Assembly (NCBI GenBank): GCA_947487845.1
Contig: CANKYC010000001.1
Span: 1 to 38,264 of the forward strand
DNA length: 38,264 bases
From: Rickettsiales bacterium
GTDB taxonomy: Bacteria > Pseudomonadota > Alphaproteobacteria > Rickettsiales > UBA1997
Direction: 5' to 3'
The notes below the pieces were generated by a model. It ran no database searches. It saw nothing but the letters and a program-made list of their open reading frames with translations, and was not told the DNA's origin. The position numbers were made by a program, and so were the translations under genes. Positions 1 to 31,905 of the stretch are shown here, piece after piece (the first letter of the stretch is position 1; each line of letters opens with the position of its first letter).

Positions 1-134
1 TATCTCTTGATAGCGCTAACGAAGTATTTTTGAGGAAAAATTGCGACTGGAAATGTAAGCTGTATCAAGTGATACAGCGTCATTTTCTGAGCAAATTTTT
101 ACCAAAAAGACAAAGTTATGGCTATCAAGAGATA
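1..134. repeat. Palindromic element upstream of cydB. The terminal inverted repeat is tatctcttgatagc / gctatcaagagata, with an internal hairpin gctgtatc-aagt-gatacagc near 59-78.
   Basis: Read directly: bases 1-14 are the reverse complement of 121-134. The element touches the window edge, so its true extent is unknown. Confidence 0.5.
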
Positions 135-1976: not shown

Positions 1977-2111
1977 GGTGATTATCCCTTAAGACACAAT
2001 AGATGTCACCCTGAGCTTGTCGAAGGGTGATTTAAGGCTTCGATCTTAGAATCACCCTTCGATAAACTCAGGGTGACATCGAGTTTTTTTGTGAATCAAG
2101 GTATAATTACC
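1977..2111. mobile_element. Family-A MITE-like palindromic element, copy A1. Ends are ggtgattatccc...ggtataattacc and the core hairpin is gatgtcaccctgagcttgtcgaagggtgat / atcacccttcgataaactcagggtgacatc.
   Basis: The inverted-repeat core was read directly. A perfect 8-bp direct repeat ctatctga flanks the element at 1969-1976 and 2112-2119. Confidence 0.8.
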
Positions 2112-7263: not shown

Positions 7264-7500
7264 GACCGCAAAACCCCCCAACCCCCCTTAACAGGGGGGC
7301 TTTGAGATTGAGTTCGGTTTAAAGCCTTCCCGTCAAAAGTGGCTTTGTTGAGATTGAGTTCGGTTTAAAGCCTTCCCGTCAAAAGTGGCTTGTTGAGATT
7401 GAGTTCGGTTTAAGCCCCCCTGTCAAGGGGGGTTGGGGGGTTTTGCGGTCTATAATTGGGGGGTTTTGCGGTCTATAATTGAGGGATTTTGTGGTCTATA
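7264..7500. repeat. Composite element D1. GC-rich hairpin arms enclose ~2.5 copies of a ~43-46-bp tandem repeat, and 3 copies of ggggttttgcggtctataatt trail after it.
   Basis: The left arm gaccgcaaaaccccccaaccccccttaacaggggggc and the right arm gcccccctgtcaaggggggttggggggttttgcggtc are reverse complements. The inner unit is ttgagattgagttcggtttaaagccttcccgtcaaaagtggct. Confidence 0.8.
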
Positions 7501-7864
7501 AATTTTCTTCAAGATTCAAAAATCCAACAATCTTCTCACAAACATCTTCAAAATTTTCCATCACTTCCAAATTACTAAATCGAATTACCCTTATCCCCAA
7601 ATTTTGTAATTTCTTACTCCTAAATTCATCATATCTCAAAGCTTCTTCACTATAATGACTATCGCCATCAACCTCAATTACCAATAATTTTTTTGCACAG
7701 TAAAAATCTACAATAAATTCAGCGATCGGTTTTTGTTTAGTAAAACGAATTGGCAAGGTTCTTAAAAAATCAAACCAAAGCTTTTTTTCAGCAGGCGTGA
7801 GATTTTTTCTAAGGTCGCGTGATTTTGATTTTAGAGAATAATTGTAGATTTTAAAATTAGGCAT
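7496..7864 (-). CDS. DUF559 / Vsr-like endonuclease-domain protein
   Basis: 122 aa. LTPAEKKLWFDFLR...FTKQKPIAEFIVDFYC...LVIEVDGDSH...D..R...L...G..V.RF is the DUF559 signature as I recall it. Confidence 0.75.
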   Translation of the reverse strand: MPNFKIYNYSLKSKSRDLRKNLTPAEKKLWFDFLRTLPIRFTKQKPIAEFIVDFYCAKKLLVIEVDGDSHYSEEALRYDEFRSKKLQNLGIRVIRFSNLEVMENFEDVCEKIVGFLNLEENL

Positions 7865-11397: not shown

Positions 11398-11534
11398 GTA
11401 CCTCAAGCCTGATTTCACCCTGAGCTTGTCGAAGGGTGATTCAAGTCCGAAACCTAAAATCACCCTTCGACAAGCTCAGGGTGACATCAGGCTTGAGTGA
11501 CATCAGGCTTGAGTGACATCAGGCTTTGAGGCGA
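11398..11534. repeat. Family-A-related hairpin, copy A2, with an extended stem and a 16-nt tandem repeat at its 3' edge
   Basis: cctcaagcctgatttcaccctgagcttgtcgaagggtgat ... atcacccttcgacaagctcagggtgacatcaggcttgag, followed by gtgacatcaggcttga repeated about 3 times. Confidence 0.75.
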
Positions 11535-12691: not shown

Positions 12692-12719
12692 CGGAATCTC
12701 GTTGGAGATCCCGACTTTT
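12692..12719. terminator. Possible bidirectional intrinsic terminator between convergent nagZ and the H1-like gene
   Basis: cggaatctc-gttg-gagatcccg forms a stem with one mismatch. A-runs lie upstream and a T-run downstream on both strands. Confidence 0.4.
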
Positions 12720-12751: not shown

Positions 12752-12985
12752 CTACTTTTTCTTAGTTACAGTTTTTTTAGCAGGAGCTTTTTTATCAACT
12801 GCTTTTTTAACAACGGTTTTTTTATCAACGGTTTTTTTATCAACTGGTTTTTTAACAACGGTTTTTTTAGCAACTGGTTTTTTAGCTACAGTTTTTTTTG
12901 CAACTACTTTTTTAGCGGGAGCTTTTTTTACAACAGCTTTTTTAGCTGGAGCTTTTTTCGCAACTACTTTTTTGATAGGGGCCAT
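12752..12985 (-). CDS. Lysine/alanine-rich histone-H1-like basic protein (~77 aa)
   Basis: MAPIKKVVAKKAPAKKAVVKKAPAKK...KKTVTKKK. It consists of (A/V/P/T)xKK repeats, and the DNA is visibly a tandem repeat. The start is taken at the internal ATG just after the tatC stop. Confidence 0.65.
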   Translation of the reverse strand: MAPIKKVVAKKAPAKKAVVKKAPAKKVVAKKTVAKKPVAKKTVVKKPVDKKTVDKKTVVKKAVDKKAPAKKTVTKKK

Positions 12986-12992
12986 AATTTTT

Positions 12993-13745
12993 TTACTTTT
13001 TATTGTTAAAATTTTTACCAATAAGAATTGCAATTTCGAATAATAAAATCATCGGAATTGCCAAACTAACTTGACTCAAGATGTCTGGGGGAGTAAGGAC
13101 GGCGGCCACTAAAAAAATGATCACAATCCAGTATCTTCTCTTTTTTCTTAAATCATTGGCGGACAAACAACCAACTTTAATTAAAAAAAGCAACAAGATT
13201 GGTAATTCAAATGCGATGCCAAATCCAAATAGTAAATTTGTCACAAAATTTAAGTATTCACTAATGCGTGTTTCAAGTTGAATTGGAAGTGAAGCAGATG
13301 TTGCGGAGCCTTGAATTTCAAAGCTCGCGAAGAATTGAAAAGCGACTGGCAAAATAAAATAATAGGCAAAAATCGCGCCGCATAAAAATAAAAGTGGAGC
13401 GAAAAAAAATGTTAACAGAATATTTTTTTTCTCATTTTTGTATAAAGCTGGAGATAAAAAAAGATAAATTTCTGCCGCAAAAATTGGGAAAGAAAAAAAT
13501 AATGCTGATGAAAGAGAAAGTTTTAGATAGGTCATGAACGCTTCAGTGGGGCTGGTGTAGATCAATTTACGATTCTGATTATTTTGTGAAATTTCTGCGA
13601 AAGGTTGCAATAAAAATTCGTAAATTTTTTCGGAAAAAAAATAGCAGAGTGAAAAAGAGATGATGAAAAATATTAGAGAAAAAATTATGCGTTTGCGAAG
13701 TTCGACAAAATGTTCGTTGAGTGTCATGAAGTTTTTTTTATTCAT
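12993..13745 (-). CDS. tatC: Twin-arginine translocase subunit TatC
   Basis: TLNEHFVELRKRIIFSLIFF..., six predicted TM segments, and the YLNFVTNLLFGFGIAFELPIL motif. The start is chosen at MNKKNFMTLNEH (13745); the longest ORF extends to 13838. Confidence 0.85.
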   Translation of the reverse strand: MNKKNFMTLNEHFVELRKRIIFSLIFFIISFSLCYFFSEKIYEFLLQPFAEISQNNQNRKLIYTSPTEAFMTYLKLSLSSALFFSFPIFAAEIYLFLSPALYKNEKKNILLTFFFAPLLFLCGAIFAYYFILPVAFQFFASFEIQGSATSASLPIQLETRISEYLNFVTNLLFGFGIAFELPILLLFLIKVGCLSANDLRKKRRYWIVIIFLVAAVLTPPDILSQVSLAIPMILLFEIAILIGKNFNNKK

Positions 13746-13858
13746 GGTCGGGTTTTTTTTAAGAAGTTTTTTGATTGAAAATTTATAATGTTTCTTGTGG
13801 GTTTTATGTAAGAGTGAGTTTGTATGTACAAAATACATCTTTCAACAAAAGCGTAAAA

Positions 13859-14569
13859 CTATTTTGCTTCAATTCTCAATTGGCAAACTGGACTAATTAT
13901 GCTTTGATTATATTCGCCAAGCTTCACACATTCTTCATTTGTTGGAACATTTAACATATCGCCACCAACTGCAATAATTCTGCCTTTTTGCGGATTTCCA
14001 TCATCCATTTTTTGATCAAACAAAAAAGCTTCTTCGCTTTTCAGGCTGCGATTATTTGTGTAAAGGCGATCAGTATCAGCAAATTTAAAACCAATTTGGT
14101 AAAAAGTTTTTCCTTCATTTCCAAAAACCGCAATGCCGGAATTTTCTCCAATTTTACTAAGTGGAAAAGTGCTGCCGTTTTTTGCGTCGCTATCATCTTT
14201 GCCATCATAATTTTCATCGATCATTTTTGTTTTTGATAAATGGAGCCAGAACTTAGTTATTTCACCATTGGCCATGAGAATTTGCTGCACGCTATCTGTA
14301 ATTATATTATCGTTGTTGCCATCGGTGCTATATTCGGTGATGCCATAAGTGACGGTGCTTTTAAGATCTCCGGGAAGGGCTTGGTATTTTTGAGTAAAAT
14401 TATTGAGTGCAGCATCGTATTTTTTGATCTGCATGATGAGGGATTTTACATTATTTTCTTTGATTATTTTTTTAACAAAGAGAATGCCAGCAATTGCTAG
14501 GCAAATAATGCAAAGCGTGATTAAAAATTCTATGATAGTGAAAGCATTTTTAGAATTTTTATTTTTCAT
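13859..14569 (-). CDS. Type IV pilin / pseudopilin-like protein
   Basis: The class III leader is MKNKNSKNA|FTIIEFLITLCIICLAIAGILF, with F at +1, E at +5 and a hydrophobic alpha1-N helix. A C-terminal Cys pair, ECVKLGEYNQSIISPVC, resembles the pilin D-region disulfide loop. Confidence 0.7.
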   Translation of the reverse strand: MKNKNSKNAFTIIEFLITLCIICLAIAGILFVKKIIKENNVKSLIMQIKKYDAALNNFTQKYQALPGDLKSTVTYGITEYSTDGNNDNIITDSVQQILMANGEITKFWLHLSKTKMIDENYDGKDDSDAKNGSTFPLSKIGENSGIAVFGNEGKTFYQIGFKFADTDRLYTNNRSLKSEEAFLFDQKMDDGNPQKGRIIAVGGDMLNVPTNEECVKLGEYNQSIISPVCQLRIEAK

Positions 14570-14576
14570 AAATTTT

Positions 14577-17500
14577 CTATTTATCTTCATCTTTGTCTTT
14601 ATCTCCATCAAACCTTTTGACGAATTTTTTAAATTCTTCAGGTGAGTCTAAGCCTTTACTGGCTTTGGCAATCGCCTTTGATCTTTTCTCTTGCTCTTGA
14701 ACAAATTTTTCTGCGTCTTCTGGCGACTCCAAGCTGTCATATTCTTTAACTAATTTTTCAGCGCGTTGATAAGCGCCGCTATGTGGAGTTTGGTTTTTAG
14801 GGTCCGGATCTCTTGCTGAATCTTCTTTTTTCATTAATTCTCTGGCTTGGTTTGAAAGAGCATCAGCTTTTTTAACTGCCTTGCCAAGTCTGGTCGCATC
14901 TTTTAATTCTTTTTGACCTTCTTTTTCTTCTTTGACTGCATTTTGATAGTCTTGTTCTTTAGGATCTAAAGGTTTGCCCTTTAATTTATCAGCTATTCTT
15001 TTCATAAGAGGAGGGCGATCTTGCGCAGCTGAGTCTTTCTCTCCCTTTGCCTTTGTTATTTTGTTTGTGGCGGCAGTTTTTTTATCGCCTATTGTTTGTA
15101 CAGCTCCAGTTTTTTTATCTTTAAAGTTGGTAATATTTTTATTTTTAGGTGCTTCTTTGCTAGCTCCTGAAGTCGCAGAAACGCTGGCGGTTGAAGCTCC
15201 TGCTGTTGGTGCGCCTGCTGTTGTTTCTTCTGATTTTTTTAGCTCTTCCTCCTTATTATCCAGTAATTCAGCATTATCCAGTAAATCAGCTCTTTGTTGA
15301 CCTTCTTCGCTAATTTCACTAGCGGTTGTTGCCGCGGCGTCAAATTCTTCTGTTGCCTTCAGTTTCTCTTCAATATTCTCCAACTTGGTATCGATTTGTC
15401 TAACAGCAGCACCAGCCAAATTTTGTTTTTTGGTAAGTTCGGCAAGTTTTGGATCTTCAGCCCCACCCATTTGTCTGAGTTGGGATTGAGCTTTTCTAGC
15501 TTCCTTATCTTCTTTTCTGGCGGCATCGTCAAAGATTCTCTTCCCAGTACTAAAGCCTTCATGGGTTTTTTTGGCTTTTTCAGTTAGTTCTTTTACTAAC
15601 TCAGCTCTTTCTGTAAATTCAGGGGTATTTTTGTATGCTTCAACTTCACCACTAGCTTTATCATAATCTTTCATCGCAGTTGCGCGACCTTTTTCCAGTT
15701 TACCTTTTTCACCTTTAACTGCGGCCAGTTTTTCTTTTCCTTGTTCCTTGGCGGCTTTGAGCAAGTCTTTCTGGGTTTCTTTTTTGATTTCTGAACCTTG
15801 TTTGCCCATTGGATTATATCTTTTAGCTGCGGCTGACATTCTTGCTCCGATTTGTTCAGATAATCTGGCATTCGGATCAATTGCGGCAATTTCTTTGTTA
15901 TAAGCTTCTTCTTTGGCGATGCCGGTCATGGTGTTTAAATCAGGTGTTTTGATCTCAGATTTTTTCTCATTTTCATTTTGTTTGACTCGGTCTTGAATCA
16001 TCTTCTTCTCTTCATCTGGGCGAGCAAAATTGGTTCCAGCAGCCATTGGAAGAATAGCACCTTCTTTTTCTAATTGTTTGGTTGCTTCATAACCTTTTGG
16101 ATCTGCCATTTTTTCAGCCATATCAGGGGCTGATGATATTGCGCTGCCAACCGATTTAGCAGCTCCTGCTGCCATTTTAAGCGCTCCTGAGCCCGCTTTA
16201 CCAACTTCAGATATTGCGCCACCAATTGCTTTTCCAGCTTCTTTTCTGGCGGCAGCGCCTTCTTCTCCCGAACTCACAAGTTTTGCTGCGCCCACTGCTG
16301 TATTTTTAGCTCCAGTTGCTGCTCCCGAGATTGCATTTCCAGCGCTTGTAGCCGCGCTACTAGCTGCATTTTTAGCTCCAGTTGCCGCGCTAGATGCTGC
16401 ACTAGATATTGCGCCACCAATTGCTTTTCCAGCTTCATTTCTGGCTTCAGCGCCTTTTGCTGTTGGACTCATAAGTGTTGCTGCGCCACTTGCTGTATTT
16501 TTAGCTCCAGTTGCTGCACTAGATATTGCGCCACTAATTGCTTTTCCAGCTTCATTTCTGGCTTCAGCGCCTTTTGCTGTTGGACTCATAAGTGTTGCTG
16601 CACTACTTGTGGCACTTGCAGCTCCCGAAGCTACGCTCGATGCTGCACCGCCAATTGCTTTACCAACAGAAGTTTCTGACGCAGCTTTTGCAGCGCCGCC
16701 AATTGCGCCACCAACCGCTCCAGCTGCGCCACTGACGGTTTTAGCTGCATCCGAAAGTTTTGCGGCAGTATTTTTTTCGACATCAACATTGCCTTTGGCG
16801 ATATTATCTTTGAGTGTTTTGGCATCTTCGGCGTTTAGACCTTTTCCAGCAGCTTGAGCTTGAGTAAGTTTAAGATCTGATGATTTTTCACTTAAAGACT
16901 CATTTAGAGTTTTGCCGCCCATGAATCTTTGTTTAAGCGCGCTGGCAGCAGCTCCACCAAGAGTATCTCCTTCGAATTTGGAGCCTTTATCATTTTTCAA
17001 TCTATCAATGTCCTTATCATTCAATCCAAGATCTTTACCTGCTTTGGTTTGAGCTGCATCTTCAACACTTTTCAGTGTTTTTCTTTGTTCTTCTTTACTC
17101 ATGCCGGAAAGGGCGACTTTATTTTTATCAATATAATCATTTTTAGCTTTGTTACCAGCTTTTGCCATGGAGTTTTTGTTGGAGAAGTCTTTGGCATTGT
17201 TGGCTTTGCGGGTGTTACGTTCTTTGTCAGCCATGGCTCCAGAATCAAAAAGAGCTTTATCCATTCTTTGCATGACTTGACCACCAGTTTTGTTCCACAA
17301 ATCTTTACGACCTTTTTCAGCTATATCGCTAACTGCTTTAGCTGCATCAGCAATGCCTTTGCCAAGTGAACTGGCTGATAAACCGCCACTAATTGAAGCG
17401 GCAAGATCTGTCATAAAGCCAATGAATTTATTCATTAGTGATGCAATTACCCAAATGAAGAGAATTGAAAATAATGATGGAATTCCTTCTGGGTTTCCAA

Positions 17501-20500
17501 TGTTTCCAACGTCAGATTGGGCATTGGTTCTTGCTGGCAACGAAGCAATTGTCCAGAATGATAATAATGTTATGCGGGTGATGATGTTAATGGTCCAGAC
17601 TTCATCCCAGCAAATTTTGTAACCAAGTGAAAGTTTAATAACTTCATACATTAACATGTTGAAGAAGGCGAGAGTGGTGAGTAAGAAAATTTGTTGTAGC
17701 GAGAAGCCAATCAACTGCTTTAGCCAATTGTCAAACATTTCCTTGGTCTGATTAAAGAGTGTAAATATGAGGAATATTGGACCTAAAGTGAAGAGGATTG
17801 AGATAAATACCTGCGCGGTTAGATAGAGTAGTACGGCATTTGCAACTGAGTAAACATAAAGCATGAAGCTTTGATAGATGATGATTAAGTAGGCCCAACC
17901 GAAGATGCTGGCAAATAACAAAGCGGAAACTTTTTTCTGAACAGCTTGAGAAAAGAACATGCTGAAAACATTATCGACGCTGCTGAAAAGAACAGATTTA
18001 TCATAATAGTCACTATTGGCTATTGCGTCAGAGACGGCGTGATTACTTGAATCATCAAAGGATGAGGCCATCATGAAGGCGAGGTAGTCGGTACCATTTT
18101 TAAAGAACCTCACTACTAAATTGTTGAACCAGTCCCAACCTGTTTCGCCAATAAAGAGATAGATTACGCCGATCTTGATAATGCGATTAATAATCTCGGA
18201 GTGATTTAATTCACTAGTTCCCATTAGATAGCCAACGCCGTAAAAGCTAAACATCACTACGAAGCACATGGTTACGATGGCCTTGAATCTGGCATCAGCA
18301 ATGACCAGTTTATAAACTCTTTCTGCCTGACCAACGCTCGCTTTTTTACAATAATATTGTTTAGCGCAACTATTGCCATCGCTTAAAACGCAGGTGGCGC
18401 CGGTGTTAGATGCGCTTACGGAATATAAAGGATTATTAGTTCTTACGCCATCATTTGAGATAATGCTGCCAGTCGTGCTGCAGTTACGTAATTTTGGACC
18501 ATCCATAACTTCAATTACAGGAGTAATAACTCCGCCAATAATGCTAGAAATACTGCCGCCAGACTCGTTTTTTACTTTAACGTTAACAAAATATGAGCCG
18601 CTATTATTCGCATATTTATTGGCGCAGTAATATTGTTTCGTGCAGGTTTTGGCAGTTAATTCAGAGGCGCTACAAGTTTTATTAGTATTTGGAAGATTTG
18701 AAGCGCACCCGCCAGTAGGTGTCGGATAACCGTCGTTTTCAACGCTAGAAGAATCAGTTTTGCAGCTACTTGGGTTATAAGCTGGATTTGAAAGCTTTCT
18801 GCCATCGGCTGATGTTCCAGTAGCAACAGCTCCGCTAGAGATATTACAATTGGTAACTTCAGGATCCAGAATCTTGAAAGTCAGTCTTAATTTTTGGATT
18901 GAGTTTTCAATAGAACTCTGTTCATTCTTTGATTTTGCTTTGAGGGTAGAGGAAGAAAAATAGTTATCAGTATGGCAGTAAAAATTAGCGCCGGCGACTG
19001 ATGCAACGCCATTATTATTTGCAGTACAGTCTCTGGTAGCTCCGTTAACAACTAAAAGATTATTATTAATGCGTATGATATTGCCATAGCCATCAAATCC
19101 ATAACTTGTTGAAATATCTGGTGGAGTTCCCGCTGGTGTTGTGCTGGTGGGTGGAGTAATCTCAATTAATTTTGGTTGACCATCAAGAGAAATGGGATCG
19201 GAGTTTTTGCAAAGTAAACCGGTATCATTTTCTAAGCATAACCTTCCTTGCAACCATTGACCGTTAGAAAAATCAAGCATCCCAGATAGGCTGATTTTAA
19301 AACCATTGGAGCCAGTATAAGAGCTACCAATTCCAGTATTGTTGGTGTAGGCATCTTTGTCGTTAAAATCAGAACCATCGAGCATAAAAAATCTTAATCT
19401 ACCTTCTGTTCCAAAAGTCAGGGGTTGCTTGAGTTGGAAAATCTTATTATTCCCCTTTGAATCAGTGGTTCCAGAATCAACAAAGTTTTCAAGATTTCCA
19501 TAACTGCCATTAAACGCACCGATTTTGGCAAGACCTTTGGTTATGTTTGGCTTTGCAAGATCTGCGTCAGTATATCCGTTATTAGGAATCAAAGACACTT
19601 TGCTGGTATAATTTTCCAAGTCGTAACATTGAATCATGTCAGATAAAGCAATTTTACCCGATAGACCAGCATTAGTTTTCATCTTCTCCGAGCAGGCAGC
19701 GCAGGTTGCAGAAGTGATAGTAGAAGTGTAGGAATCTGAAGGGCAGGCGGTTGCGGTTGGAGCTATTAATGTGCAGGTTCCTTTTTGATAAAGAGGAGAA
19801 ACGCCGTCAGGGCAAGTTATAGTTGATTGACAGCCGGTAAGCGGACAATAATTAGTTGTAGATACACTATTAGAGCATTCACTAGCATATGCCTTACAAC
19901 CGATTAATGTTCCGCTACTATTATAATCTTGATTGCATGCTGTATTTAAAACATAATCAGTGGCCATTCCTTTGCAAAGCAATGCTGGTCTTGGTTCGAT
20001 CATCATTGCCATTCCAATACCGCATTGGCGGTTTCCAGCGCCTGTCGTCCAGGTTCCATCCCAACTCTTAGGTGAGAAGCGGATTATTTGTCCTTTTCTA
20101 ACAAAAGATAAATTTGACCAACTAGGCGTTGTTGCAGTCGTGATTGATGCGGGTACGTTTAAATTAGCAAGAGGATCTTTGGATGATGAAGGTGTCGTAG
20201 CGAAATTATCATATTCGTAAATGTCATTATTGGCAAAAGTTCCTTCTGGATTCATGATGCGAGCCTGAATTTTGCAAGTACCGCTGCCGTTAAGCATGGT
20301 AAATTTGACAAAACCAGATTTTTGCATTTTTAATTCGTGGTATTTATTAAATTTAACCCCAATGCCTTTGCCACAACTGCCAGAGGTTGTAAGTTTTGCG
20401 ACCGAAAGTTTTTTTCCGCCTTCAAGTGGAATTTCTACATCATCGCTCCAACGGTCATTTGTAACTGCGGTTGAGTAAGGAACTCCGTTACTATCCGTAA

Positions 20501-21749
20501 CTACTAACGTAACATTGCAGGAAGAGTTGCCAGTTAGAGACTTGAATGAAACTCGGAAAGCGGTATCAGAAGTAGGATTTTGAATTTCGACTGAATTAGC
20601 AGAAAGATCTCCAAGAATTTTCCCTGAAGTTGCCGGAGTGGAATCTATGTTGGTGCAGATTCCTGTGGTGGTATTACAACTTGTGCCAGGGAAAAGGTTG
20701 TCGGCGAAAGAAGTTAAATTATCTCCGGTCCAACGAATAATACCGCCATAAGATGTCAGAATATCGGTTGCGGCAGAAGAAGATAAAGGAAATGCAGCTA
20801 TGGCTAAAGAGTTATCAGCCCTAGTATATCCAGCTGGAGAAGCGGTGTAAGGATTGGTGGTTTTATTGTGACAATTTGCTTCGGTTAAATTACTGCCAGT
20901 ATAGTCGCAAGTCCAAGCTAGGGCATCAGGTAAAAGTGGAGCTCCTTTGGTTCCGGATTGTTCGCTTGATTGAGAAACGTCAAAACTATAACCCGCTGGA
21001 TGAGGAATCACGTAAGCAATAATTCTGCGTGCGCCAATATAAGTAGCATTGCTAATTGCTCCGGCTCCAGAACCTAAGGTATTAGTGCCATCATACCACA
21101 AACCGCTAAAATTCAAATTAATAGTTTGTCCGTTTCTGACGTCAAAAAATACATCATTAGATCCACTTGACCAATCTTCTTTTTTTGCATGAGGAATATT
21201 ATTAGTAGCTTGAACGTGGATAGGATTATAATCTATGGTATCACCTAAATGGATTGTTCCCACTGCGCGTATAATGATTTCTGATCCGGGTCTTATTGTA
21301 ACGCCACTATTTGCAGTAGATGATCTTTTGTCAGTTGAAACCCAATTTGGCTCAGGATCTCCAGCTTCGGTGCCAGACAAACAGCTCTGTAAGCAGCCAG
21401 CAACGCATAAATTTTTATAAGTAGCATCGGTAAAACCAGCGCAGCCGCTAGAGCTTGTTCTAGGAAGACCGGCTTCATTATAAATTGTGGTGCTACCACT
21501 AGTAAAACATGTTTTAACTCCGCTACCTTGAGTTGAATCAGTTATTTCTTTCGACCCATCATAAGTACATTTTTCTTGTTGAGAGTTGGCGGAAACTTCG
21601 ATTGTTTGGCTTTCATATTCACCAAAATCATCGGCATCAATACAACCTTGATCAGTGCAGGAAGAAGAAAGGGCAAAAAATAGCAATAAAACTACTGTCT
21701 TGGCGAAGATTTTCTGATGCTGGATTTTTTTAAACCAATTCTTGATCAA
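14577..21749 (-). CDS. Giant (2390-aa) TrbL/VirB6-like membrane protein with a large Cys-rich N-terminal ectodomain and a repetitive hydrophilic C-terminal tail
   Basis: Single uninterrupted ORF with a TTG start and no upstream ATG. The N-terminal signal peptide is KIFAKTVVLLLFFALSSSC. Residues ~1155-1465 are polytopic and include LFTLGPIFLIFTLFNQTKEMFDNWLKQLIGFSLQQIF, which I recognise as VirB6/TrbL-like. The tail is K/A/E/G-rich with 39-aa repeats. Confidence 0.75.
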   Translation of the reverse strand: MIKNWFKKIQHQKIFAKTVVLLLFFALSSSCTDQGCIDADDFGEYESQTIEVSANSQQEKCTYDGSKEITDSTQGSGVKTCFTSGSTTIYNEAGLPRTSSSGCAGFTDATYKNLCVAGCLQSCLSGTEAGDPEPNWVSTDKRSSTANSGVTIRPGSEIIIRAVGTIHLGDTIDYNPIHVQATNNIPHAKKEDWSSGSNDVFFDVRNGQTINLNFSGLWYDGTNTLGSGAGAISNATYIGARRIIAYVIPHPAGYSFDVSQSSEQSGTKGAPLLPDALAWTCDYTGSNLTEANCHNKTTNPYTASPAGYTRADNSLAIAAFPLSSSAATDILTSYGGIIRWTGDNLTSFADNLFPGTSCNTTTGICTNIDSTPATSGKILGDLSANSVEIQNPTSDTAFRVSFKSLTGNSSCNVTLVVTDSNGVPYSTAVTNDRWSDDVEIPLEGGKKLSVAKLTTSGSCGKGIGVKFNKYHELKMQKSGFVKFTMLNGSGTCKIQARIMNPEGTFANNDIYEYDNFATTPSSSKDPLANLNVPASITTATTPSWSNLSFVRKGQIIRFSPKSWDGTWTTGAGNRQCGIGMAMMIEPRPALLCKGMATDYVLNTACNQDYNSSGTLIGCKAYASECSNSVSTTNYCPLTGCQSTITCPDGVSPLYQKGTCTLIAPTATACPSDSYTSTITSATCAACSEKMKTNAGLSGKIALSDMIQCYDLENYTSKVSLIPNNGYTDADLAKPNITKGLAKIGAFNGSYGNLENFVDSGTTDSKGNNKIFQLKQPLTFGTEGRLRFFMLDGSDFNDKDAYTNNTGIGSSYTGSNGFKISLSGMLDFSNGQWLQGRLCLENDTGLLCKNSDPISLDGQPKLIEITPPTSTTPAGTPPDISTSYGFDGYGNIIRINNNLLVVNGATRDCTANNNGVASVAGANFYCHTDNYFSSSTLKAKSKNEQSSIENSIQKLRLTFKILDPEVTNCNISSGAVATGTSADGRKLSNPAYNPSSCKTDSSSVENDGYPTPTGGCASNLPNTNKTCSASELTAKTCTKQYYCANKYANNSGSYFVNVKVKNESGGSISSIIGGVITPVIEVMDGPKLRNCSTTGSIISNDGVRTNNPLYSVSASNTGATCVLSDGNSCAKQYYCKKASVGQAERVYKLVIADARFKAIVTMCFVVMFSFYGVGYLMGTSELNHSEIINRIIKIGVIYLFIGETGWDWFNNLVVRFFKNGTDYLAFMMASSFDDSSNHAVSDAIANSDYYDKSVLFSSVDNVFSMFFSQAVQKKVSALLFASIFGWAYLIIIYQSFMLYVYSVANAVLLYLTAQVFISILFTLGPIFLIFTLFNQTKEMFDNWLKQLIGFSLQQIFLLTTLAFFNMLMYEVIKLSLGYKICWDEVWTINIITRITLLSFWTIASLPARTNAQSDVGNIGNPEGIPSLFSILFIWVIASLMNKFIGFMTDLAASISGGLSASSLGKGIADAAKAVSDIAEKGRKDLWNKTGGQVMQRMDKALFDSGAMADKERNTRKANNAKDFSNKNSMAKAGNKAKNDYIDKNKVALSGMSKEEQRKTLKSVEDAAQTKAGKDLGLNDKDIDRLKNDKGSKFEGDTLGGAAASALKQRFMGGKTLNESLSEKSSDLKLTQAQAAGKGLNAEDAKTLKDNIAKGNVDVEKNTAAKLSDAAKTVSGAAGAVGGAIGGAAKAASETSVGKAIGGAASSVASGAASATSSAATLMSPTAKGAEARNEAGKAISGAISSAATGAKNTASGAATLMSPTAKGAEARNEAGKAIGGAISSAASSAATGAKNAASSAATSAGNAISGAATGAKNTAVGAAKLVSSGEEGAAARKEAGKAIGGAISEVGKAGSGALKMAAGAAKSVGSAISSAPDMAEKMADPKGYEATKQLEKEGAILPMAAGTNFARPDEEKKMIQDRVKQNENEKKSEIKTPDLNTMTGIAKEEAYNKEIAAIDPNARLSEQIGARMSAAAKRYNPMGKQGSEIKKETQKDLLKAAKEQGKEKLAAVKGEKGKLEKGRATAMKDYDKASGEVEAYKNTPEFTERAELVKELTEKAKKTHEGFSTGKRIFDDAARKEDKEARKAQSQLRQMGGAEDPKLAELTKKQNLAGAAVRQIDTKLENIEEKLKATEEFDAAATTASEISEEGQQRADLLDNAELLDNKEEELKKSEETTAGAPTAGASTASVSATSGASKEAPKNKNITNFKDKKTGAVQTIGDKKTAATNKITKAKGEKDSAAQDRPPLMKRIADKLKGKPLDPKEQDYQNAVKEEKEGQKELKDATRLGKAVKKADALSNQARELMKKEDSARDPDPKNQTPHSGAYQRAEKLVKEYDSLESPEDAEKFVQEQEKRSKAIAKASKGLDSPEEFKKFVKRFDGDKDKDEDK

Positions 21750-21847
21750 GACTAGAGACTATTTGCTGGGGGATTATTTTGAATAAAATTTAAAGGAATG
21801 CTAAAAACAGCAAGAACTTAATCAAGCTAAAACTTAGCTCTAATTAA

Positions 21848-21994
21848 GGTAATTATACCTTGATTCACAAAAAAACTCGATGTCACCCTAAGTTTGTCGA
21901 AGGGTGATTCTAAGATCGAAGCCTTAAATCACCCTTCGACAAGCTCAGGGTGACATCTATTGTGTCTTAGGACAGGCTCTAAGGGATAATCACC
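21848..21994. mobile_element. Family-A element, copy A3, inverted relative to A1
   Basis: ggtaattataccttgattcacaaaaaaactcgatgtcacccta...gggtgacatctattgtgtcttag[gacaggctct]aagggataatcacc is the reverse complement of A1 plus a ~10-11-nt internal duplication. Its flanks (ctaattaa / aattttcg) show no target-site duplication. Confidence 0.8.
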
Positions 21995-22039
21995 AATTTT
22001 CGGCATAATTAGGCGCTGTTAACTAACTAATTTTATTCC

Positions 22040-22503
22040 ATATTTCGCCCCCGCCGCAGGATGGGATTTATAATCCCGTTCTCATTTTCATGTAGAACTT
22101 AAATTGAGGAAATGAAATTTTAGATTGGGTTTACAAACCCAGTTCAGCGCAGATTCTGACTTGGAAAAAACCCCTCACCCCAACCCTCTCCCGCAAGGGG
22201 AGAGGGGGTTAAACCGAGTTGGATTCATTCGCATTCTAACAAGAAGAAAAGTTAAACCGAGTTGGATTCACTCGCATTCTAACAAGAAGAAGAGTTAAAC
22301 CGAGTTGGATTTGCTCCCTCTCCCATTGCGGGAGAGGGTTGGGGTGAGGGGTTTTTATGTTCAGCAAAACCAATCTAAAATGTTTTTTAACTGGCTGTTT
22401 TTTCGAGTTTTCTTGGCGGCTTAAAACCAACGCGGCGGGTTTTCTTCGCGATTTTAAAAAATTTACATCGAAAAAATTAATCGAAAATATTGCCGAATTT
22501 TAG
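22040..22503 (+). pseudogene. Degraded IS200/IS605-family (Y1, RayT-like) transposase remnant, split by composite element D2
   Basis: The 3' piece (22441-22500) reads FLRDFKKFTSKKLIENIAEF*, which matches the ..LSDILRDFKKFTSKKII.. block I recall from ~180-aa Y1 transposases. The 5' piece (~22059-22115) reads GWDL*SRSHFHVELKLRK*, resembling ..GLELYAW..MSNHVHLIARAKEG... There are stops and indels, and no N-terminus. Confidence 0.4.
22166..22355. repeat. Composite element D2. GC-rich hairpin arms enclose ~2.4 copies of a 43-bp tandem repeat.
   Basis: The arms are aaaaacccctcaccccaaccctctcccgcaaggggagaggg and ccctctcccattgcgggagagggttggggtgaggggttttt. The inner unit is gttaaaccgagttggattcaytcgcattctaacaagaagaara. 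The architecture matches D1, and the inner unit shares taaaccga.. with the reverse complement of D1. Confidence 0.8.
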
Positions 22504-22537
22504 CCGCATGTTCATGCAAAACTTAAATTAACGAATA

Positions 22538-22672
22538 TCACATCTCATCCGAAACCTTATCAAATTTCGGGCGTTTTTCATCTTTTAAATGTTCAAGCGG
22601 GCCTTTTTTGCCGCAAGCGGTAAAAGCAAAAAGTGCAATTAAAACTAAACAAAAAATCGATTTAATTTTCAT
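22538..22672 (-). CDS. lptM: Small (44-aa) lipoprotein, LptM/YifL-like; not in the supplied ORF track
   Basis: My own translation gives MKIKSIFCLVLIALFAFTACGKKGPLEHLKDEKRPKFDKVSDEM. It has a signal peptide, a lipobox Cys and the CG.KGPL motif of YifL/LptM. It starts 4 nt after the argH stop on the same strand. Confidence 0.55.
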   Translation of the reverse strand: MKIKSIFCLVLIALFAFTACGKKGPLEHLKDEKRPKFDKVSDEM

Positions 22673-24113: not shown

Positions 24114-24272
24114 TGCGGATGCGCGGTTTTATTCCGCGCGTAGCAACTAAGGTGATTATCTCTTAAGACACAATAGATGTCACCCTTCGACAAACTCAGG
24201 GTGACATCGAGTTTTTTTGTGAATCAAGGGATAATTACCGCAACTAAATTTAAACAAAGTTTGAATTTAAAT
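24114..24272. repeat. Family-E repeat, copy E2, interrupted by family-A copy A4
   Basis: tgcggatgcgcggttttattccgcgcgtagcaactaa [A4] gcaactaaatttaaacaaagtttgaatttaa. Compare the uninterrupted E1 at 10701-10772. Confidence 0.55.
24151..24239. mobile_element. Family-A element, copy A4 (one hairpin arm deleted, 89 bp)
   Basis: ggtgattatctcttaagacacaatagatgtcacccttcgacaaactcagggtgacatcgagtttttttgtgaatcaagggataattacc. The 8-bp direct repeat gcaactaa lies at 24143-24150 and 24240-24247. Confidence 0.8.
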
Positions 24273-31621: not shown

Positions 31622-31905
31622 TTATCCTTTAAAATAAAACCGAAGCCACCTAGAACCCCGAAGCCACAACCCTCAAATCCCGAAGCCACAACAACCCTCA
31701 AATCCCGAAGCCACAACAACCCTGAACCCCGAAGTCACAACAACCCTCAACCCCGAAGTCACAACAACCCTGAACCCCGAAGTCACAACAACCCTCAACC
31801 CCGAAGTCACCCTGAGTTTATCGAAGGGTGATTCAAGCCCGAAACCCTAAATCACCCTTCGATAAACTCAGGGTGACATTCATTATGTTTCAAGGGATAA
31901 TTCAC
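31617..31905. mobile_element. Family-A element, copy A5, expanded internally by a 24-25-nt tandem array
   Basis: It starts ggtgattatcc and ends gggataattcac, with the core hairpin at ~31805-31880. The perfect 8-bp direct repeat aaataagt lies at 31609-31616 and 31906-31913. Confidence 0.8.
31640..31800. repeat. Tandem repeat of ~7 units of ccccgaag(c/t)cacaacaaccct(c/g)aa inside A5
   Basis: Units were read directly. The last unit merges into the gaagtcaccctgag arm of the A5 hairpin. Confidence 0.85.

What the first reader, a model, noticed from the sequence alone, without database searches (positions are those of the whole stretch)
14577..21749. Orphan 2390-aa VirB6/TrbL-like protein with a ~1100-aa Cys-rich ectodomain and ~900-aa repeat tail
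Seen in the sequence: this is one uninterrupted ORF, by far the largest in the window, with three parts.

1. A signal peptide (..LLLFFALSSSC, possibly a lipobox) followed by ~1100 residues. This region is rich in C, T, S, G and N and has no TM segment.
2. A polytopic membrane core at residues ~1155-1465. It contains LFTLGPIFLIFTLFNQTKEMFDNWLKQLIGFSLQQIF, which matches my memory of the conserved TrbL/VirB6 (Pfam PF04610) helix-loop.
3. About 925 hydrophilic K/A/E/G-rich residues with 39-aa tandem repeats.

Established knowledge: Rickettsiales carry enlarged VirB6 paralogs with C-terminal extensions, but those sit beside virB3/virB4.

Here no VirB2-5, VirB7-11 or VirD4 gene lies within 38 kb. 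The huge N-terminal extracytoplasmic domain is not part of any VirB6 architecture I know. The immediate downstream gene is a type IV pilin-like protein, then tatC and an H1-like gene, all co-directional with short gaps.

Inference: this may be a stand-alone surface or host-contact module that repurposes a T4SS inner-membrane channel fold.
Basis: partly seen in the sequence, partly recalled or inferred. Interest (0 to 1): 0.8.

Follow-up and report, generated by a model that had tools for sequence, protein, structure and literature searches.

The report
Giant VirB6-family protein with new ectodomain
This is a real 2390-residue membrane protein of the type IV secretion VirB6/TrbL family carrying a large, cysteine-rich outer domain seen nowhere else; it is not an orphan but one member of a conserved family in uncultured freshwater Rickettsiales-like bacteria whose other secretion-system genes are scattered around the genome.

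Summary
ORF 14577-21749 (-) is intact and has four parts: a lipoprotein-type signal peptide, a ~1100-aa Cys-rich beta-rich ectodomain, a TrbL/VirB6 core (Pfam E=2e-18; matches R388 TrwI), and a ~920-aa K/A/E-rich tail with a 39-aa repeat.

No other T4SS gene was found in the 38-kb window. A type IV pilin-like gene, tatC and an HC2-like gene follow on the same strand.

"Orphan/stand-alone" is not supported. The same architecture occurs in at least 61 species-level MAGs labelled Rickettsiales or Alphaproteobacteria, always among housekeeping genes and sometimes as tandem duplicates. Several of those relatives carry VirB2, VirB8/VirB9 or VirB10/VirB11 genes within 10 kb of the giant gene or its pilin-like partner. 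That is the scattered pattern of the Rickettsiales rvh system.

Hydrophilic C-terminal repeat tails are already known in "extended VirB6" proteins such as Anaplasma VirB6-3/-4.

The new part is the N-terminal ectodomain. An exhaustive search of 1.84 billion representatives found it only in this family. It has no Pfam hit and no significant structural match, and two distant members carry a lectin domain inserted in it.

Best reading: a lineage-specific extended VirB6 whose ectodomain enlarges the periplasmic stalk or serves target contact in a VirB5-less T4SS. I class it as a new variant of a known kind, of moderate interest.

The parts
14577..21749 (-). Whole gene: 2390-aa extended VirB6/TrbL-family protein (TTG start; stop codon at 14577-14579)
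   Evidence: ORF list and translation. Full-length homologues at 30-96% identity in 61 genomes.
21657..21749 (-). Signal peptide with lipobox-like end (residues 1-31, ...FFALSSS|C31)
   Evidence: Hydropathy. The Cys and the small residue at -1 are conserved in 68 homologues. C31 is invariant. Processing by Lgt/Lsp is inferred.
18330..21656 (-). Ectodomain, residues 32-1140: Cys-rich, S/T/G/N-rich, mostly beta, multi-domain
   Evidence: Composition and Cys map. Invariant Cys columns. AF2 model with pLDDT 82.4 and pTM 0.72. No Pfam family. No significant PDB or BFVD structural match. Found only in this family among 1.84e9 representatives.
17340..18329 (-). Polytopic TrbL/VirB6 core, residues 1141-1470 (Pfam match at residues 1166-1371, nt 17637-18254); includes LGPIF and FDNW (W1342)
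   Evidence: Pfam PF04610, E=2e-18. TrwI 7o3v, E=3.9e-4. 24-26% identity to plasmid VirB6. Hydropathy shows 5 strong and 2 weak segments. Median identity 75% across the family.
14580..17339 (-). Hydrophilic tail, residues 1471-2390: A/K/E/G-rich, no Cys. Conserved membrane-proximal part (1471-1700) and motif (about 1881-1935); variable repeat and distal parts.
   Evidence: Composition. Per-region conservation. Only coiled-coil or low-complexity matches in PDB.
16395..16665 (-). 117-nt (39-aa) tandem repeat, 2.3 copies, inside the tail (residues about 1696-1785)
   Evidence: Tandem Repeats Finder.
13859..14611 (-). Type IV pilin-like gene (250-aa ORF; the likely true start near 14569 gives about 236 aa). 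It overlaps the giant gene or starts within about 10 nt of its stop.
   Evidence: N-terminal K-N-A|F-T-I-I-E motif plus hydrophobic helix, and an invariant C228...C243 pair. Pfam N_methyl only 12 bits here but present in 6 of 62 homologues. AF2 pLDDT 89.9 with a 51-residue N-terminal helix. Top PDB fold hit is C. difficile PilA1, probability 0.99, E=0.015. Adjacent to the giant gene in about 22 related genomes.
12993..13838 (-). tatC (conserved downstream neighbour; probably a housekeeping gene rather than part of the system)
   Evidence: Pfam TatC, E=2e-68. Synteny.
12752..13033 (-). HC2/histone H1-like K/A-rich small gene, last gene of the co-directional run
   Evidence: Pfam HC2, 45.3 bits. 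Present after tatC in L006 and L007.
12692..12713 (-). Terminator-like hairpin after the HC2-like gene; a possible end of the transcription unit
   Evidence: Consensus scan. The overall count is not above chance; only the position is suggestive.
21750..22537 (.). Repeat-rich intergenic region upstream of the gene (palindromic element, 43-nt tandem x3, GC hairpins). Probable promoter region and a synteny breakpoint relative to close relatives.
   Evidence: Relatives have coaD-Elm1 directly upstream instead.

Best explanation
The gene encodes a lineage-specific 'extended VirB6' subunit of a dispersed, rvh-like P-type type IV secretion system. The host is an uncultured aquatic Rickettsiales-like alphaproteobacterium.

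Proposed mechanism (shown versus inferred):
1. The protein is exported by Sec, and its N-terminus is lipid-modified at Cys31. This is inferred from a conserved lipobox.
2. The 1100-aa ectodomain folds in the oxidising periplasm into a chain of disulfide-stabilised beta-sandwich modules. The fold is supported by the AF2 model and the invariant Cys; the compartment is inferred.
3. The TrbL core takes the VirB6 position at the base of the periplasmic stalk, probably as a pentamer as in R388 TrwI. Homology is shown; assembly is inferred.
4. rvh systems have no VirB5. The ectodomain therefore most likely enlarges or replaces the stalk/tip, or reaches the surface as a carbohydrate- or target-binding contact element. 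The lectin insertions in two distant members point that way; this step is inferred.
5. The Cys-free K/A/E-rich tail behaves like the hydrophilic C-terminal extensions of Anaplasma VirB6-3/-4. It is either a cytoplasmic docking region or an extruded or cleaved surface-exposed segment. Its topology is unresolved.
6. The tightly coupled type IV pilin-like gene is a frequent, probably co-transcribed partner of unknown role.
For: - Core identity: Pfam TrbL E=2e-18; TrwI match with the essential Trp aligned; 24-26% identity to alphaproteobacterial plasmid VirB6.
- Conservation: the core has 75% median identity and the ectodomain 41% across the family, which indicates strong constraint.
- Distribution: the family is present in 61 species-level MAGs labelled Rickettsiales or Alphaproteobacteria.
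- T4SS genes in relatives, all in housekeeping surroundings: VirB8+VirB9 7.5-9 kb from the giant gene (L066; also L019). TrbC/VirB2 within 10 kb in L067/L033, L050, L022, L034 and L007; L007 is a close relative of the window organism, with polA 95% identical. VirB10+VirB11 lie 7 kb from the pilin-like homologue in L069.
- Tandem duplicates of the giant gene occur in L059, L063 and L064, echoing multicopy rvhB6.
- Literature: the rvh T4SS is an archipelago of islets with flanking extensions on RvhB6 and no VirB5 (PMC2653234; PMC11077975). Extended VirB6 proteins with C-terminal hydrophilic repeats are surface exposed in Anaplasma (PMC7648143). The bulk of VirB6 forms a periplasmic pentamer on which VirB5 docks (PMC12857230).
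- Ectodomain: 42 Cys, many invariant; confident beta-rich model; SUEL lectin domain in 2 of 22 distant members.
Against: - No other T4SS gene lies in this 38-kb window. The rest of this genome could not be seen; attempts to extend the contig failed.
- The giant gene was never found next to virB3/virB4, the canonical rvhB6 position.
- Whether these genomes also have ordinary-size VirB6 genes is unknown. If they do, the giant protein could be a diverged paralogue with another job.
- The scattered VirB genes in relatives sit in gene-dense small genomes, so proximity within 10 kb is not proof of functional linkage.
- The ectodomain has no detectable similarity to VirB5 or to any stalk component.
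Confidence: 0.6

Rival explanations
1. Stand-alone surface or host-contact module. The VirB6 fold has been recruited as a membrane anchor or channel for a giant adhesin that works without the rest of a T4SS, possibly together with the adjacent type IV pilin-like protein.
For: - The gene always sits in housekeeping surroundings and is never beside virB3/virB4.
- A tightly coupled pilin-like gene lies directly downstream in about 22 genomes and divergently upstream in L019.
- Most pilin-like homologues on long contigs share the contig with a giant gene (compare the contig lengths).
- The ectodomain is lectin- or CBM-like, with SUEL insertions in two members.
- Freshwater Rickettsiales family UBA1997 are epibionts on cryptophytes (bioRxiv 10.1101/2023.01.31.526412). 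This would fit an attachment device, but the lineage assignment is unverified.
Against: - Relatives do carry VirB2, VirB8/9 and VirB10/11 nearby.
- Dispersal of vir genes is the norm in Rickettsiales.
- The very high conservation of the core, including the substrate-transfer Trp motif, is what one expects of a working T4SS subunit rather than a mere anchor.
- About half of the family members have no adjacent pilin-like gene.
Confidence: 0.22
2. Diverged extra paralogue. The genome has ordinary rvhB6 genes beside virB3/virB4 elsewhere, and this giant copy is an accessory or regulatory VirB6 (for example excluding or modulating assembly, or delivering its own tail as an effector), analogous to RvhB6e or VirB6-4.
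For: - Rickettsiales carry 4-5 very divergent VirB6 paralogues, and the virB6e orthologue of Orientia is not arrayed with the others (PMC2653234).
- Anaplasma VirB6-4 has a huge variable repeat tail and its disruption attenuates growth (PMC7648143).
- L069 carries a different N-terminally extended 1123-aa TrbL protein.
- The tail repeat and distal regions evolve fast, at 4-10% median identity.
Against: - No second TrbL gene was seen in any of about 1.2 Mb of flanking sequence, apart from tandem copies of the same family.
- The core is far more conserved than RvhB6 paralogues are reported to be.
- This cannot be settled without whole genomes.
Confidence: 0.15
3. Artefact: an assembly chimera, a frameshift-fused ORF or a decaying pseudogene.
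For: The low-complexity, repeat-bearing tail is a region where assemblies can err. One relative (P0109/L068) is split into many pieces in an error-prone assembly.
Against: The same full-length architecture (1750-2570 aa) appears on dozens of independent contigs from NCBI, ENA, JGI and Logan, with the signal peptide, Cys pattern and core conserved.
Confidence: 0.01

Closest known systems
Rickettsiales 'extended VirB6' proteins: Rickettsia RvhB6a-e (674-1154 aa), Anaplasma/Ehrlichia VirB6-3/-4 (up to 4322-9935 aa)
   Same: - TrbL/VirB6 core flanked by large non-VirB6 sequence.
- Hydrophilic, repeat-bearing, fast-evolving C-terminal extension.
- Occurs in Rickettsiales-like genomes with dispersed vir genes and tandem duplication in some lineages.
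   Different: - Not beside virB3/virB4.
- Single copy in this window.
- Carries a 1100-aa lipobox-anchored, Cys-rich beta-rich N-terminal ectodomain that is confined to this family. Described extended VirB6 proteins are defined by central or C-proximal hydrophilic domains.
- No direct sequence comparison with RvhB6 could be run.
Minimal VirB6: A. tumefaciens VirB6 / R388 TrwI (about 300-340 aa; PDB 7o3v)
   Same: Homologous hydrophobic core. The LGP(I/L)F helix and the F-D-x-W loop with the essential Trp are aligned. Pfam PF04610.
   Different: - Seven times longer.
- About 24-26% identity in the core.
- Extra ectodomain and tail.
- VirB5 partner presumably absent (an rvh hallmark; not tested here).
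Legionella DotA (VirB6-equivalent) with IcmX (VirB5-equivalent)
   Same: As summarised in PMC12857230, the central VirB6-position subunit forms a pentameric protochannel and large periplasmic cylinder in an expanded T4SS. This shows that VirB6-position proteins can carry large periplasmic mass. That DotA itself has a large periplasmic domain is from my own knowledge.
   Different: No sequence or fold match to DotA was detected. DotA is not a lipoprotein and belongs to the type IVB system. This is a functional analogy only.
F-plasmid TraG / SXT TraG
   Same: A VirB6-like polytopic domain is fused to a large hydrophilic extracytoplasmic domain used for cell-cell contact functions, namely mating-pair stabilisation and entry exclusion (cited in PMC7648143).
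   Different: The domain order is reversed: in TraG the VirB6-like part is N-terminal. No Pfam TraG_N hit. TraG sits in a conjugative plasmid context rather than a chromosomal housekeeping context.
Type IV pilins / T2SS pseudopilins (for the downstream partner gene)
   Same: Class III signal-peptide motif (A/G|F-T-[IL]-[IV]-E), long hydrophobic N-terminal helix, beta-sheet head and C-terminal disulfide. The best fold hit is PilA1.
   Different: - Ala rather than Gly at -1 in most members.
- Head domain of about 170 residues without sequence similarity to named pilins.
- Pfam N_methyl below threshold in the window copy.
- No pilus assembly genes nearby.
- Linked to a VirB6-family gene, which is unusual because T4SS pili use VirB2, an unrelated pilin.

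Membership tests
TrbL/VirB6 (Pfam PF04610) | Profile match above the curated gathering score | tested here: met
   67.3 bits versus cut-off 25.9, E=2.1e-18, residues 1166-1371, profile positions 4-184 of 215. 21 of 22 distant family members also match.
TrbL/VirB6 (Pfam PF04610) | Five or more hydrophobic helices | tested here: met
   Kyte-Doolittle scan gives 5 strong segments (about 1152-1174, 1275-1297, 1303-1328, 1346-1368, 1421-1443) and 2 weaker ones. No dedicated topology predictor was available.
TrbL/VirB6 (Pfam PF04610) | Conserved Trp in the loop after the LGP-containing helix (essential in A. tumefaciens VirB6) | tested here: met
   FDNW (W1342) aligns with FDQW of TrwI. W1342 is invariant in 22 homologues. 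Essentiality is per PMC2653234.
TrbL/VirB6 (Pfam PF04610) | Encoded together with other T4SS genes (VirB4, VirB8-11 etc.) in the same genome | tested here: inconclusive
   None in the 38-kb window. The window could not be extended. Relatives have VirB2, VirB8/9 and VirB10/11 within 10 kb. VirB4 and VirD4 were never seen in the sequence held.
Extended VirB6 of the Rickettsiales rvh system (RvhB6 / VirB6-1..4) | Large hydrophilic extension(s), typically C-proximal with repeats | tested here: met
   920-aa K/A/E/G-rich tail with a 39-aa x2.3 repeat. Definition from PMC12857230 and PMC7648143.
Extended VirB6 of the Rickettsiales rvh system (RvhB6 / VirB6-1..4) | Tandem multicopy array downstream of virB3-virB4 | tested here: not met
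   Single copy in the window. The upstream neighbours are lptM-like/argH here and coaD-Elm1 in relatives. Tandem pairs exist in L059, L063 and L064, but without virB3/B4.
Extended VirB6 of the Rickettsiales rvh system (RvhB6 / VirB6-1..4) | Other rvh hallmarks in the genome (duplicated VirB4/8/9, no VirB5) | not testable with these tools
A lone VirB8-VirB9 pair in L066 resembles an rvh islet. Hallmarks are listed in PMC11077975.
Extended VirB6 of the Rickettsiales rvh system (RvhB6 / VirB6-1..4) | Sequence orthology of the core to RvhB6 rather than to other VirB6 clades | not tested
   No Rickettsia or Anaplasma VirB6 sequences were available. The core-only word-index search returned only fragments of the same family.
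Bacterial lipoprotein (SPII signal) | Lipobox [LVI..][AST..][GAS]C after an n/h-region, with Cys within the first ~35 residues | tested here: met
   K-rich n-region, then VVLLLFFAL-SSS-C31. The -1 residue is S, A or G in all 68 homologues inspected. No SignalP/LipoP run was possible.
Type IV pilin / pseudopilin (downstream gene) | Prepilin N-terminal motif G/A|F-x-x-x-E followed by a hydrophobic helix | tested here: met
   KNA|FTIIEFLITL... with E at +5. G at -1 in P0119, P0173 and P0174. Pfam N_methyl gives only 12.1 bits here (cut-off 21.2) but is recorded for 6 of the 62 homologues.
Type IV pilin / pseudopilin (downstream gene) | Pilin fold: long N-terminal alpha-helix packed on a beta-sheet, with a C-terminal disulfide | tested here: met
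   AF2 pLDDT 89.9, helix at residues 26-76 plus beta-sheet. Invariant C228 and C243. The only meaningful Foldseek hit is PilA1 of C. difficile, probability 0.99 but E=0.015.
Type IV pilin / pseudopilin (downstream gene) | Prepilin peptidase and assembly ATPase/platform genes in the genome | not testable with these tools
   None in the window. The rest of the genome was not seen.

The most novel reading that the evidence does not exclude
The N-terminal lipoprotein ectodomain is a built-in replacement for the missing VirB5 stalk/tip. A pentamer of this one polypeptide would then run from the inner membrane to the cell surface and make direct contact with a eukaryotic (algal or protist) host. The co-transcribed type IV pilin-like protein would be a dedicated partner. 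That would make this a hybrid contact device combining a T4SS channel subunit with a type IV pilin-class protein, an arrangement not described for any secretion system.
Probability: 0.2. Interest if true: 0.75.

Novelty: new variant of a known kind. Interest (0 to 1): 0.5.

Why it matters
How VirB5-less T4SSs such as the Rickettsiales rvh system build a stalk and contact their targets is open. So is the function of the extra domains of "extended VirB6" proteins; the 2025 T4SS review says explicitly that this is not known.

This family is a clean, strongly conserved case in which VirB6 carries a confidently foldable, disulfide-rich, lectin-accepting periplasmic or surface domain. It comes from environmental Rickettsiales-like lineages, which may include algal epibionts, that sit near the transition to host association.

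It gives concrete targets for structure prediction of the pentamer, for cryo-ET, and for phyletic tests of whether the ectodomain co-varies with loss of VirB5. The recurrent pairing with a type IV pilin-class gene is an unexplained and testable association.

Tried and rejected
- A core-only search of the 5.8-billion-protein word index returned only 5 fragments of the same family.
- Foldseek of the whole 1119-residue ectodomain model found nothing at E<=0.001 against PDB. The best hits were tandem beta-jelly-roll domains of SIDT1 (E=2.8e-3, TMq 0.11), then CBM22 and HA70. Against BFVD there was one hit at the threshold (E=9e-4, TMq 0.09), an uncharacterized phage protein; the other hits included tail-fibre and minor-tail proteins. 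I read this only as generic beta-sandwich modules.
- A full-length family profile against PDB sequences gave only compositional coiled-coil matches to the tail (dynactin, TolA, SMC). I rejected these as homology.
- I rejected an HGT-island reading. GC rises to 0.44 only over the Ala/Gly-rich tail, and the gene is syntenic in housekeeping context across the family.
- Large ORFs near the giant gene in distant loci were checked as possible VirB4. All were housekeeping: LeuRS-type tRNA synthetase, RNR, GidA, EF-G, LepA, photolyase.
- P0109, a 263-aa 'short TrbL', turned out to be a fragment of the giant gene in a frameshift-ridden assembly.
- Extending the window through exact-protein look-ups of the edge genes failed.
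- Rfam found only tRNA-Gly.
- Assigning the organism to GTDB family UBA1997 is suggestive from habitat, MAG names and retained amino-acid biosynthesis, but it could not be verified.
Full report
**Observation.** The ORF at 14577-21749 on the minus strand is real and uninterrupted. It is 2390 aa with a TTG start, and the next largest ORF in the window is 938 aa.

- Residues 1-31 form a signal peptide ending LSSS|C31. In 68 homologues this Cys is always preceded by S, A or G and followed by the near-invariant (T/S)DQGCI(D/E)ADDFGEY, a lipobox-type arrangement.
- Residues 32-1150 are rich in S, T, G, N and C and have no hydrophobic segment.
- Forty-two of the protein's 44 cysteines lie between residues 31 and 1134, two lie in the membrane core, and none lie in the last 920 residues. 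About thirty of them are invariant in an alignment of 22 homologues that are only 31-80% identical to the window protein.
- The membrane core matches Pfam TrbL/VirB6 at E=2.1e-18, with 67 bits against a cut-off of 26, over residues 1166-1371.
- By sequence alone the core also matches TrwI, the VirB6 of plasmid R388 with a solved structure (7o3v), at E=3.9e-4. The LGP(I/L)F helix and the F-D-x-W tryptophan are aligned.
- The core is 24-26% identical to VirB6 proteins of alphaproteobacterial plasmids.
- The tail is A/K/E/G-rich and holds a 117-nt (39-aa) tandem repeat of 2.3 copies at 16395-16665.

**The window.** Pfam scans of all sizeable ORFs show ordinary chromosomal genes: cydB, a 3'-5' exonuclease, APH, GST, polA, glycosyltransferases, sodB, hisB, nagZ, argH, ftsW, fpg, queH, asparaginase, a MiaB-like enzyme, a LysR regulator and a PALP enzyme, plus one tRNA-Gly. 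There is no other T4SS component. An HMM for VirB2/TrbC built from relatives also finds nothing here.

Directly downstream and co-directional lie three genes.
- A 250-aa ORF overlaps the giant gene's stop. Its likely true start is about 10 nt beyond that stop.
- tatC follows (E=2e-68).
- A K/A-rich HC2-like ORF comes last.

A terminator-like hairpin follows the HC2-like gene, and none separates the giant gene from the 250-aa gene. This is suggestive only, because the number of such hairpins is not above chance.

**Not an orphan.** The 5.8-billion-protein index returned 107 homologues. Nearly all are 1750-2570 aa with TrbL as the only Pfam domain, and they are named at most "type IV secretion system protein" in Rickettsiales, Alphaproteobacteria or Pseudomonadota MAGs.

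A scan of one genome per species found 61 loci. All are in uncultured MAGs, and isolate and sample names point mostly to lakes and groundwater. Their organism labels are clearly automatic and inconsistent, for example "Rickettsia typhi" or "Rhizobium sp." given to metagenome bins.

The ORF is therefore not a chimera, and the architecture is a conserved family. Conservation is uneven. Median identity to the window protein is:

| Region | Median identity |
|---|---|
| Core | 75% |
| Ectodomain | 41% |
| Membrane-proximal tail | 28% |
| Motif near residues 1881-1935 | 36% |
| Repeat region | 4% |
| Distal tail | 10% |

**Context in relatives.** The gene always sits among housekeeping genes. A common order is coaD, an Elm1-like gene, the giant gene, the pilin-like gene, tatC.
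- About 22 genomes keep the pilin-like gene directly downstream.
- About 8 genomes go straight to tatC.
- About 16 genomes have other neighbours.
- In L019 the pilin-like gene lies divergently upstream.
- Three genomes carry two giant genes in tandem.

T4SS genes do appear in these same stretches, again embedded among housekeeping genes.
- A VirB8-VirB9 pair lies 7.5-9 kb downstream in L066, and a VirB9 homologue lies in L019.
- TrbC/VirB2 genes lie within 10 kb in five species. One is L007, a close relative of the window organism with polA 95% identical.
- VirB10 and VirB11 lie 7 kb from a pilin-like homologue in L069. That locus also carries another N-terminally extended TrbL protein.

This is the dispersed "archipelago" organisation described for the Rickettsiales rvh system. 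The same literature notes highly divergent VirB6 paralogues with flanking extensions and one paralogue unlinked from the array in Orientia (PMC2653234). The rvh hallmarks are duplicated B4/B8/B9, multicopy B6 and no VirB5 (PMC11077975).

VirB4 and VirD4 were never seen in the roughly 1.2 Mb of flanking sequence I held. Large neighbouring ORFs that might have been VirB4 are housekeeping enzymes. I could not extend the window itself. So the presence of the rest of a T4SS in this particular genome remains an inference.

**What is known and what is new.** Hydrophilic, repeat-bearing C-terminal extensions are an established feature of "extended VirB6" proteins. Anaplasma VirB6-3/-4 reach 4322 and 9935 aa, are surface-exposed by trypsin shaving, and matter for growth (PMC7648143). 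The tail here fits that pattern.

The 2025 T4SS review defines extended VirB6 proteins by central or C-proximal hydrophilic domains and says their contribution is unknown (PMC12857230). A 1100-residue N-terminal, lipobox-anchored, disulfide-rich domain is not part of that description.

An exhaustive HMMER search of 1.84 billion cluster representatives with the ectodomain alone found only 120 proteins. Almost all are 1500-2600-aa proteins matched at their N-terminal ~1100 residues, or are fragments. Of 22 distant members, 21 also carry TrbL. The ectodomain therefore appears only in this family, wherever it could be checked joined to a TrbL core.

AlphaFold2 with a 39-sequence alignment gives a confident model (pLDDT 82.4, pTM 0.72), mainly beta. 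Foldseek finds nothing significant against PDB, only generic tandem beta-sandwich, jelly-roll or CBM-like resemblances. Against BFVD it finds one hit at the E=0.001 threshold (E=9e-4, TMq 0.09) to an uncharacterized phage protein, among weaker hits that include tail-fibre proteins. Two distant members have a SUEL-type galactose/rhamnose lectin domain inserted in this region. That argues for exposure to glycans, in other words a binding or contact role.

**The partner gene.** The 250-aa protein belongs to a conserved family with 62 hits at 50-70% identity.
- Its N-terminus is K-x-(A/G)|F-T-(I/L)-(I/V)-E followed by a hydrophobic helix.
- It has an invariant C-terminal Cys pair.
- Some members reach Pfam N_methyl and are named PulG or PilA by JGI. 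The window copy scores only 12 bits.
- Its AF2 model (pLDDT 89.9) has a 51-residue N-terminal helix on a beta-sheet.
- The only meaningful PDB fold hit is the type IV pilin PilA1, at probability 0.99 but E=0.015.

It is a type IV pilin-class protein, a class unrelated to the VirB2 pilins of T4SSs. Many of its homologues on long contigs share the contig with a giant gene (compare contig lengths). The linkage is not universal, however. Its role is unknown.

**Mechanism proposed.**

Shown by the data:
- A secretory, lipobox-type N-terminus.
- A conserved multi-disulfide beta-rich domain.
- A bona fide VirB6 core with the essential Trp.
- A fast-evolving hydrophilic tail.
- Tight coupling to a pilin-like gene.
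- Scattered vir genes in relatives.

Inferred:
- The protein occupies the VirB6 position at the base of the periplasmic stalk of a dispersed rvh-like T4SS. The review reports that in R388 the bulk of VirB6 forms a periplasmic pentamer on which VirB5 docks.
- rvh systems lack VirB5, so the ectodomain plausibly supplies the missing stalk or tip mass or a surface contact element.

The side of the membrane on which the tail lies is unresolved. Hydropathy gives five strong (or seven total) segments. Under the classical VirB6 model that puts the tail in the cytoplasm. The R388 structure, with only two membrane-anchoring helices, and the Anaplasma shaving data would instead allow an extracytoplasmic, possibly extruded tail.

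**Rivals.**
- Stand-alone adhesion module with the pilin-like partner: 0.22.
- Accessory paralogue alongside canonical rvhB6 genes elsewhere: 0.15.
- Artefact: 0.01.

**Verdict.** The "orphan, repurposed" interpretation is only partly supported. The protein is a member of the VirB6/TrbL family and works most like the extended VirB6 proteins of Rickettsiales. It fails the "arrayed after virB3-virB4" feature of RvhB6, and its orthology to RvhB6 was not tested. The N-terminal ectodomain, and perhaps the pilin-class partner, make it a new variant of a known kind. Interest is moderate (0.5). It would be higher if the ectodomain proves to be a VirB5 substitute or host-contact device in epibiotic Rickettsiales such as the cryptophyte-associated family UBA1997 (bioRxiv 10.1101/2023.01.31.526412); I could not verify that lineage assignment.

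Noticed in passing
window 2005-2077, 11414-11485, 21882-21954, 31806-31877, and a half copy at 24186-24205: A dispersed palindromic intergenic element. Its core is TTCGACAARCTCAGGGTGAC, found in inverted pairs about 53 nt apart. There are 9 matches against 0 expected by chance. It looks like a REP/RPE-like miniature repeat.
   Followed up: partly
window 21750-22540: An 800-bp repeat-rich intergenic region upstream of the giant gene. It holds a 43-nt tandem repeat x3 (22208-22336), two GC-rich hairpins of the form CCCTCTCCC...GGGAGAGGG, and a 93-nt imperfect inverted repeat. It coincides with a synteny break: relatives have coaD-Elm1 directly upstream, whereas this window has an lptM-like ORF and argH.
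   Followed up: partly
L007:20344-20990 (+): In a close relative of the window organism, a VirB2/TrbC-like pilin domain is fused to a Cys-rich, EGF-like C-terminal extension (CxxGxCxCxxGFTG... repeats). The gene is cut by the locus end. This is an unusual VirB2 architecture, and a second Cys-rich extracytoplasmic add-on to a T4SS subunit in this lineage.
   Followed up: no
L069:15950-18732 (-), and L069:1-1891: A different 1123-aa TrbL protein with a long N-terminal extension that BLAST does not relate to the ectodomain here; its core is 34% identical. It lies 6 kb from a pilin-like homologue and on the same stretch as VirB10 and VirB11. N-terminally extended VirB6 proteins may be more widespread in these MAG lineages.
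   Followed up: partly
L059:6775-20191, L064:9104-21358, L063:19-8727: Tandem duplicates of the giant gene (for example 2364 + 2109 aa), followed by the pilin-like gene and tatC.
   Followed up: partly
window 7496-7864 (-); L065:21387-23858 (-): A DUF559 endonuclease-like ORF lies next to polA in the window. In L065 a DUF559 domain sits inside an 823-aa GidA/MnmG ORF. This suggests a mobile or inserted endonuclease module.
   Followed up: no
window 12752-13033 (-): A K/A-rich histone H1-like (Pfam HC2, 45 bits) small ORF overlaps the 3' end of the tatC ORF. It is also conserved after tatC in L006 and L007.
   Followed up: no
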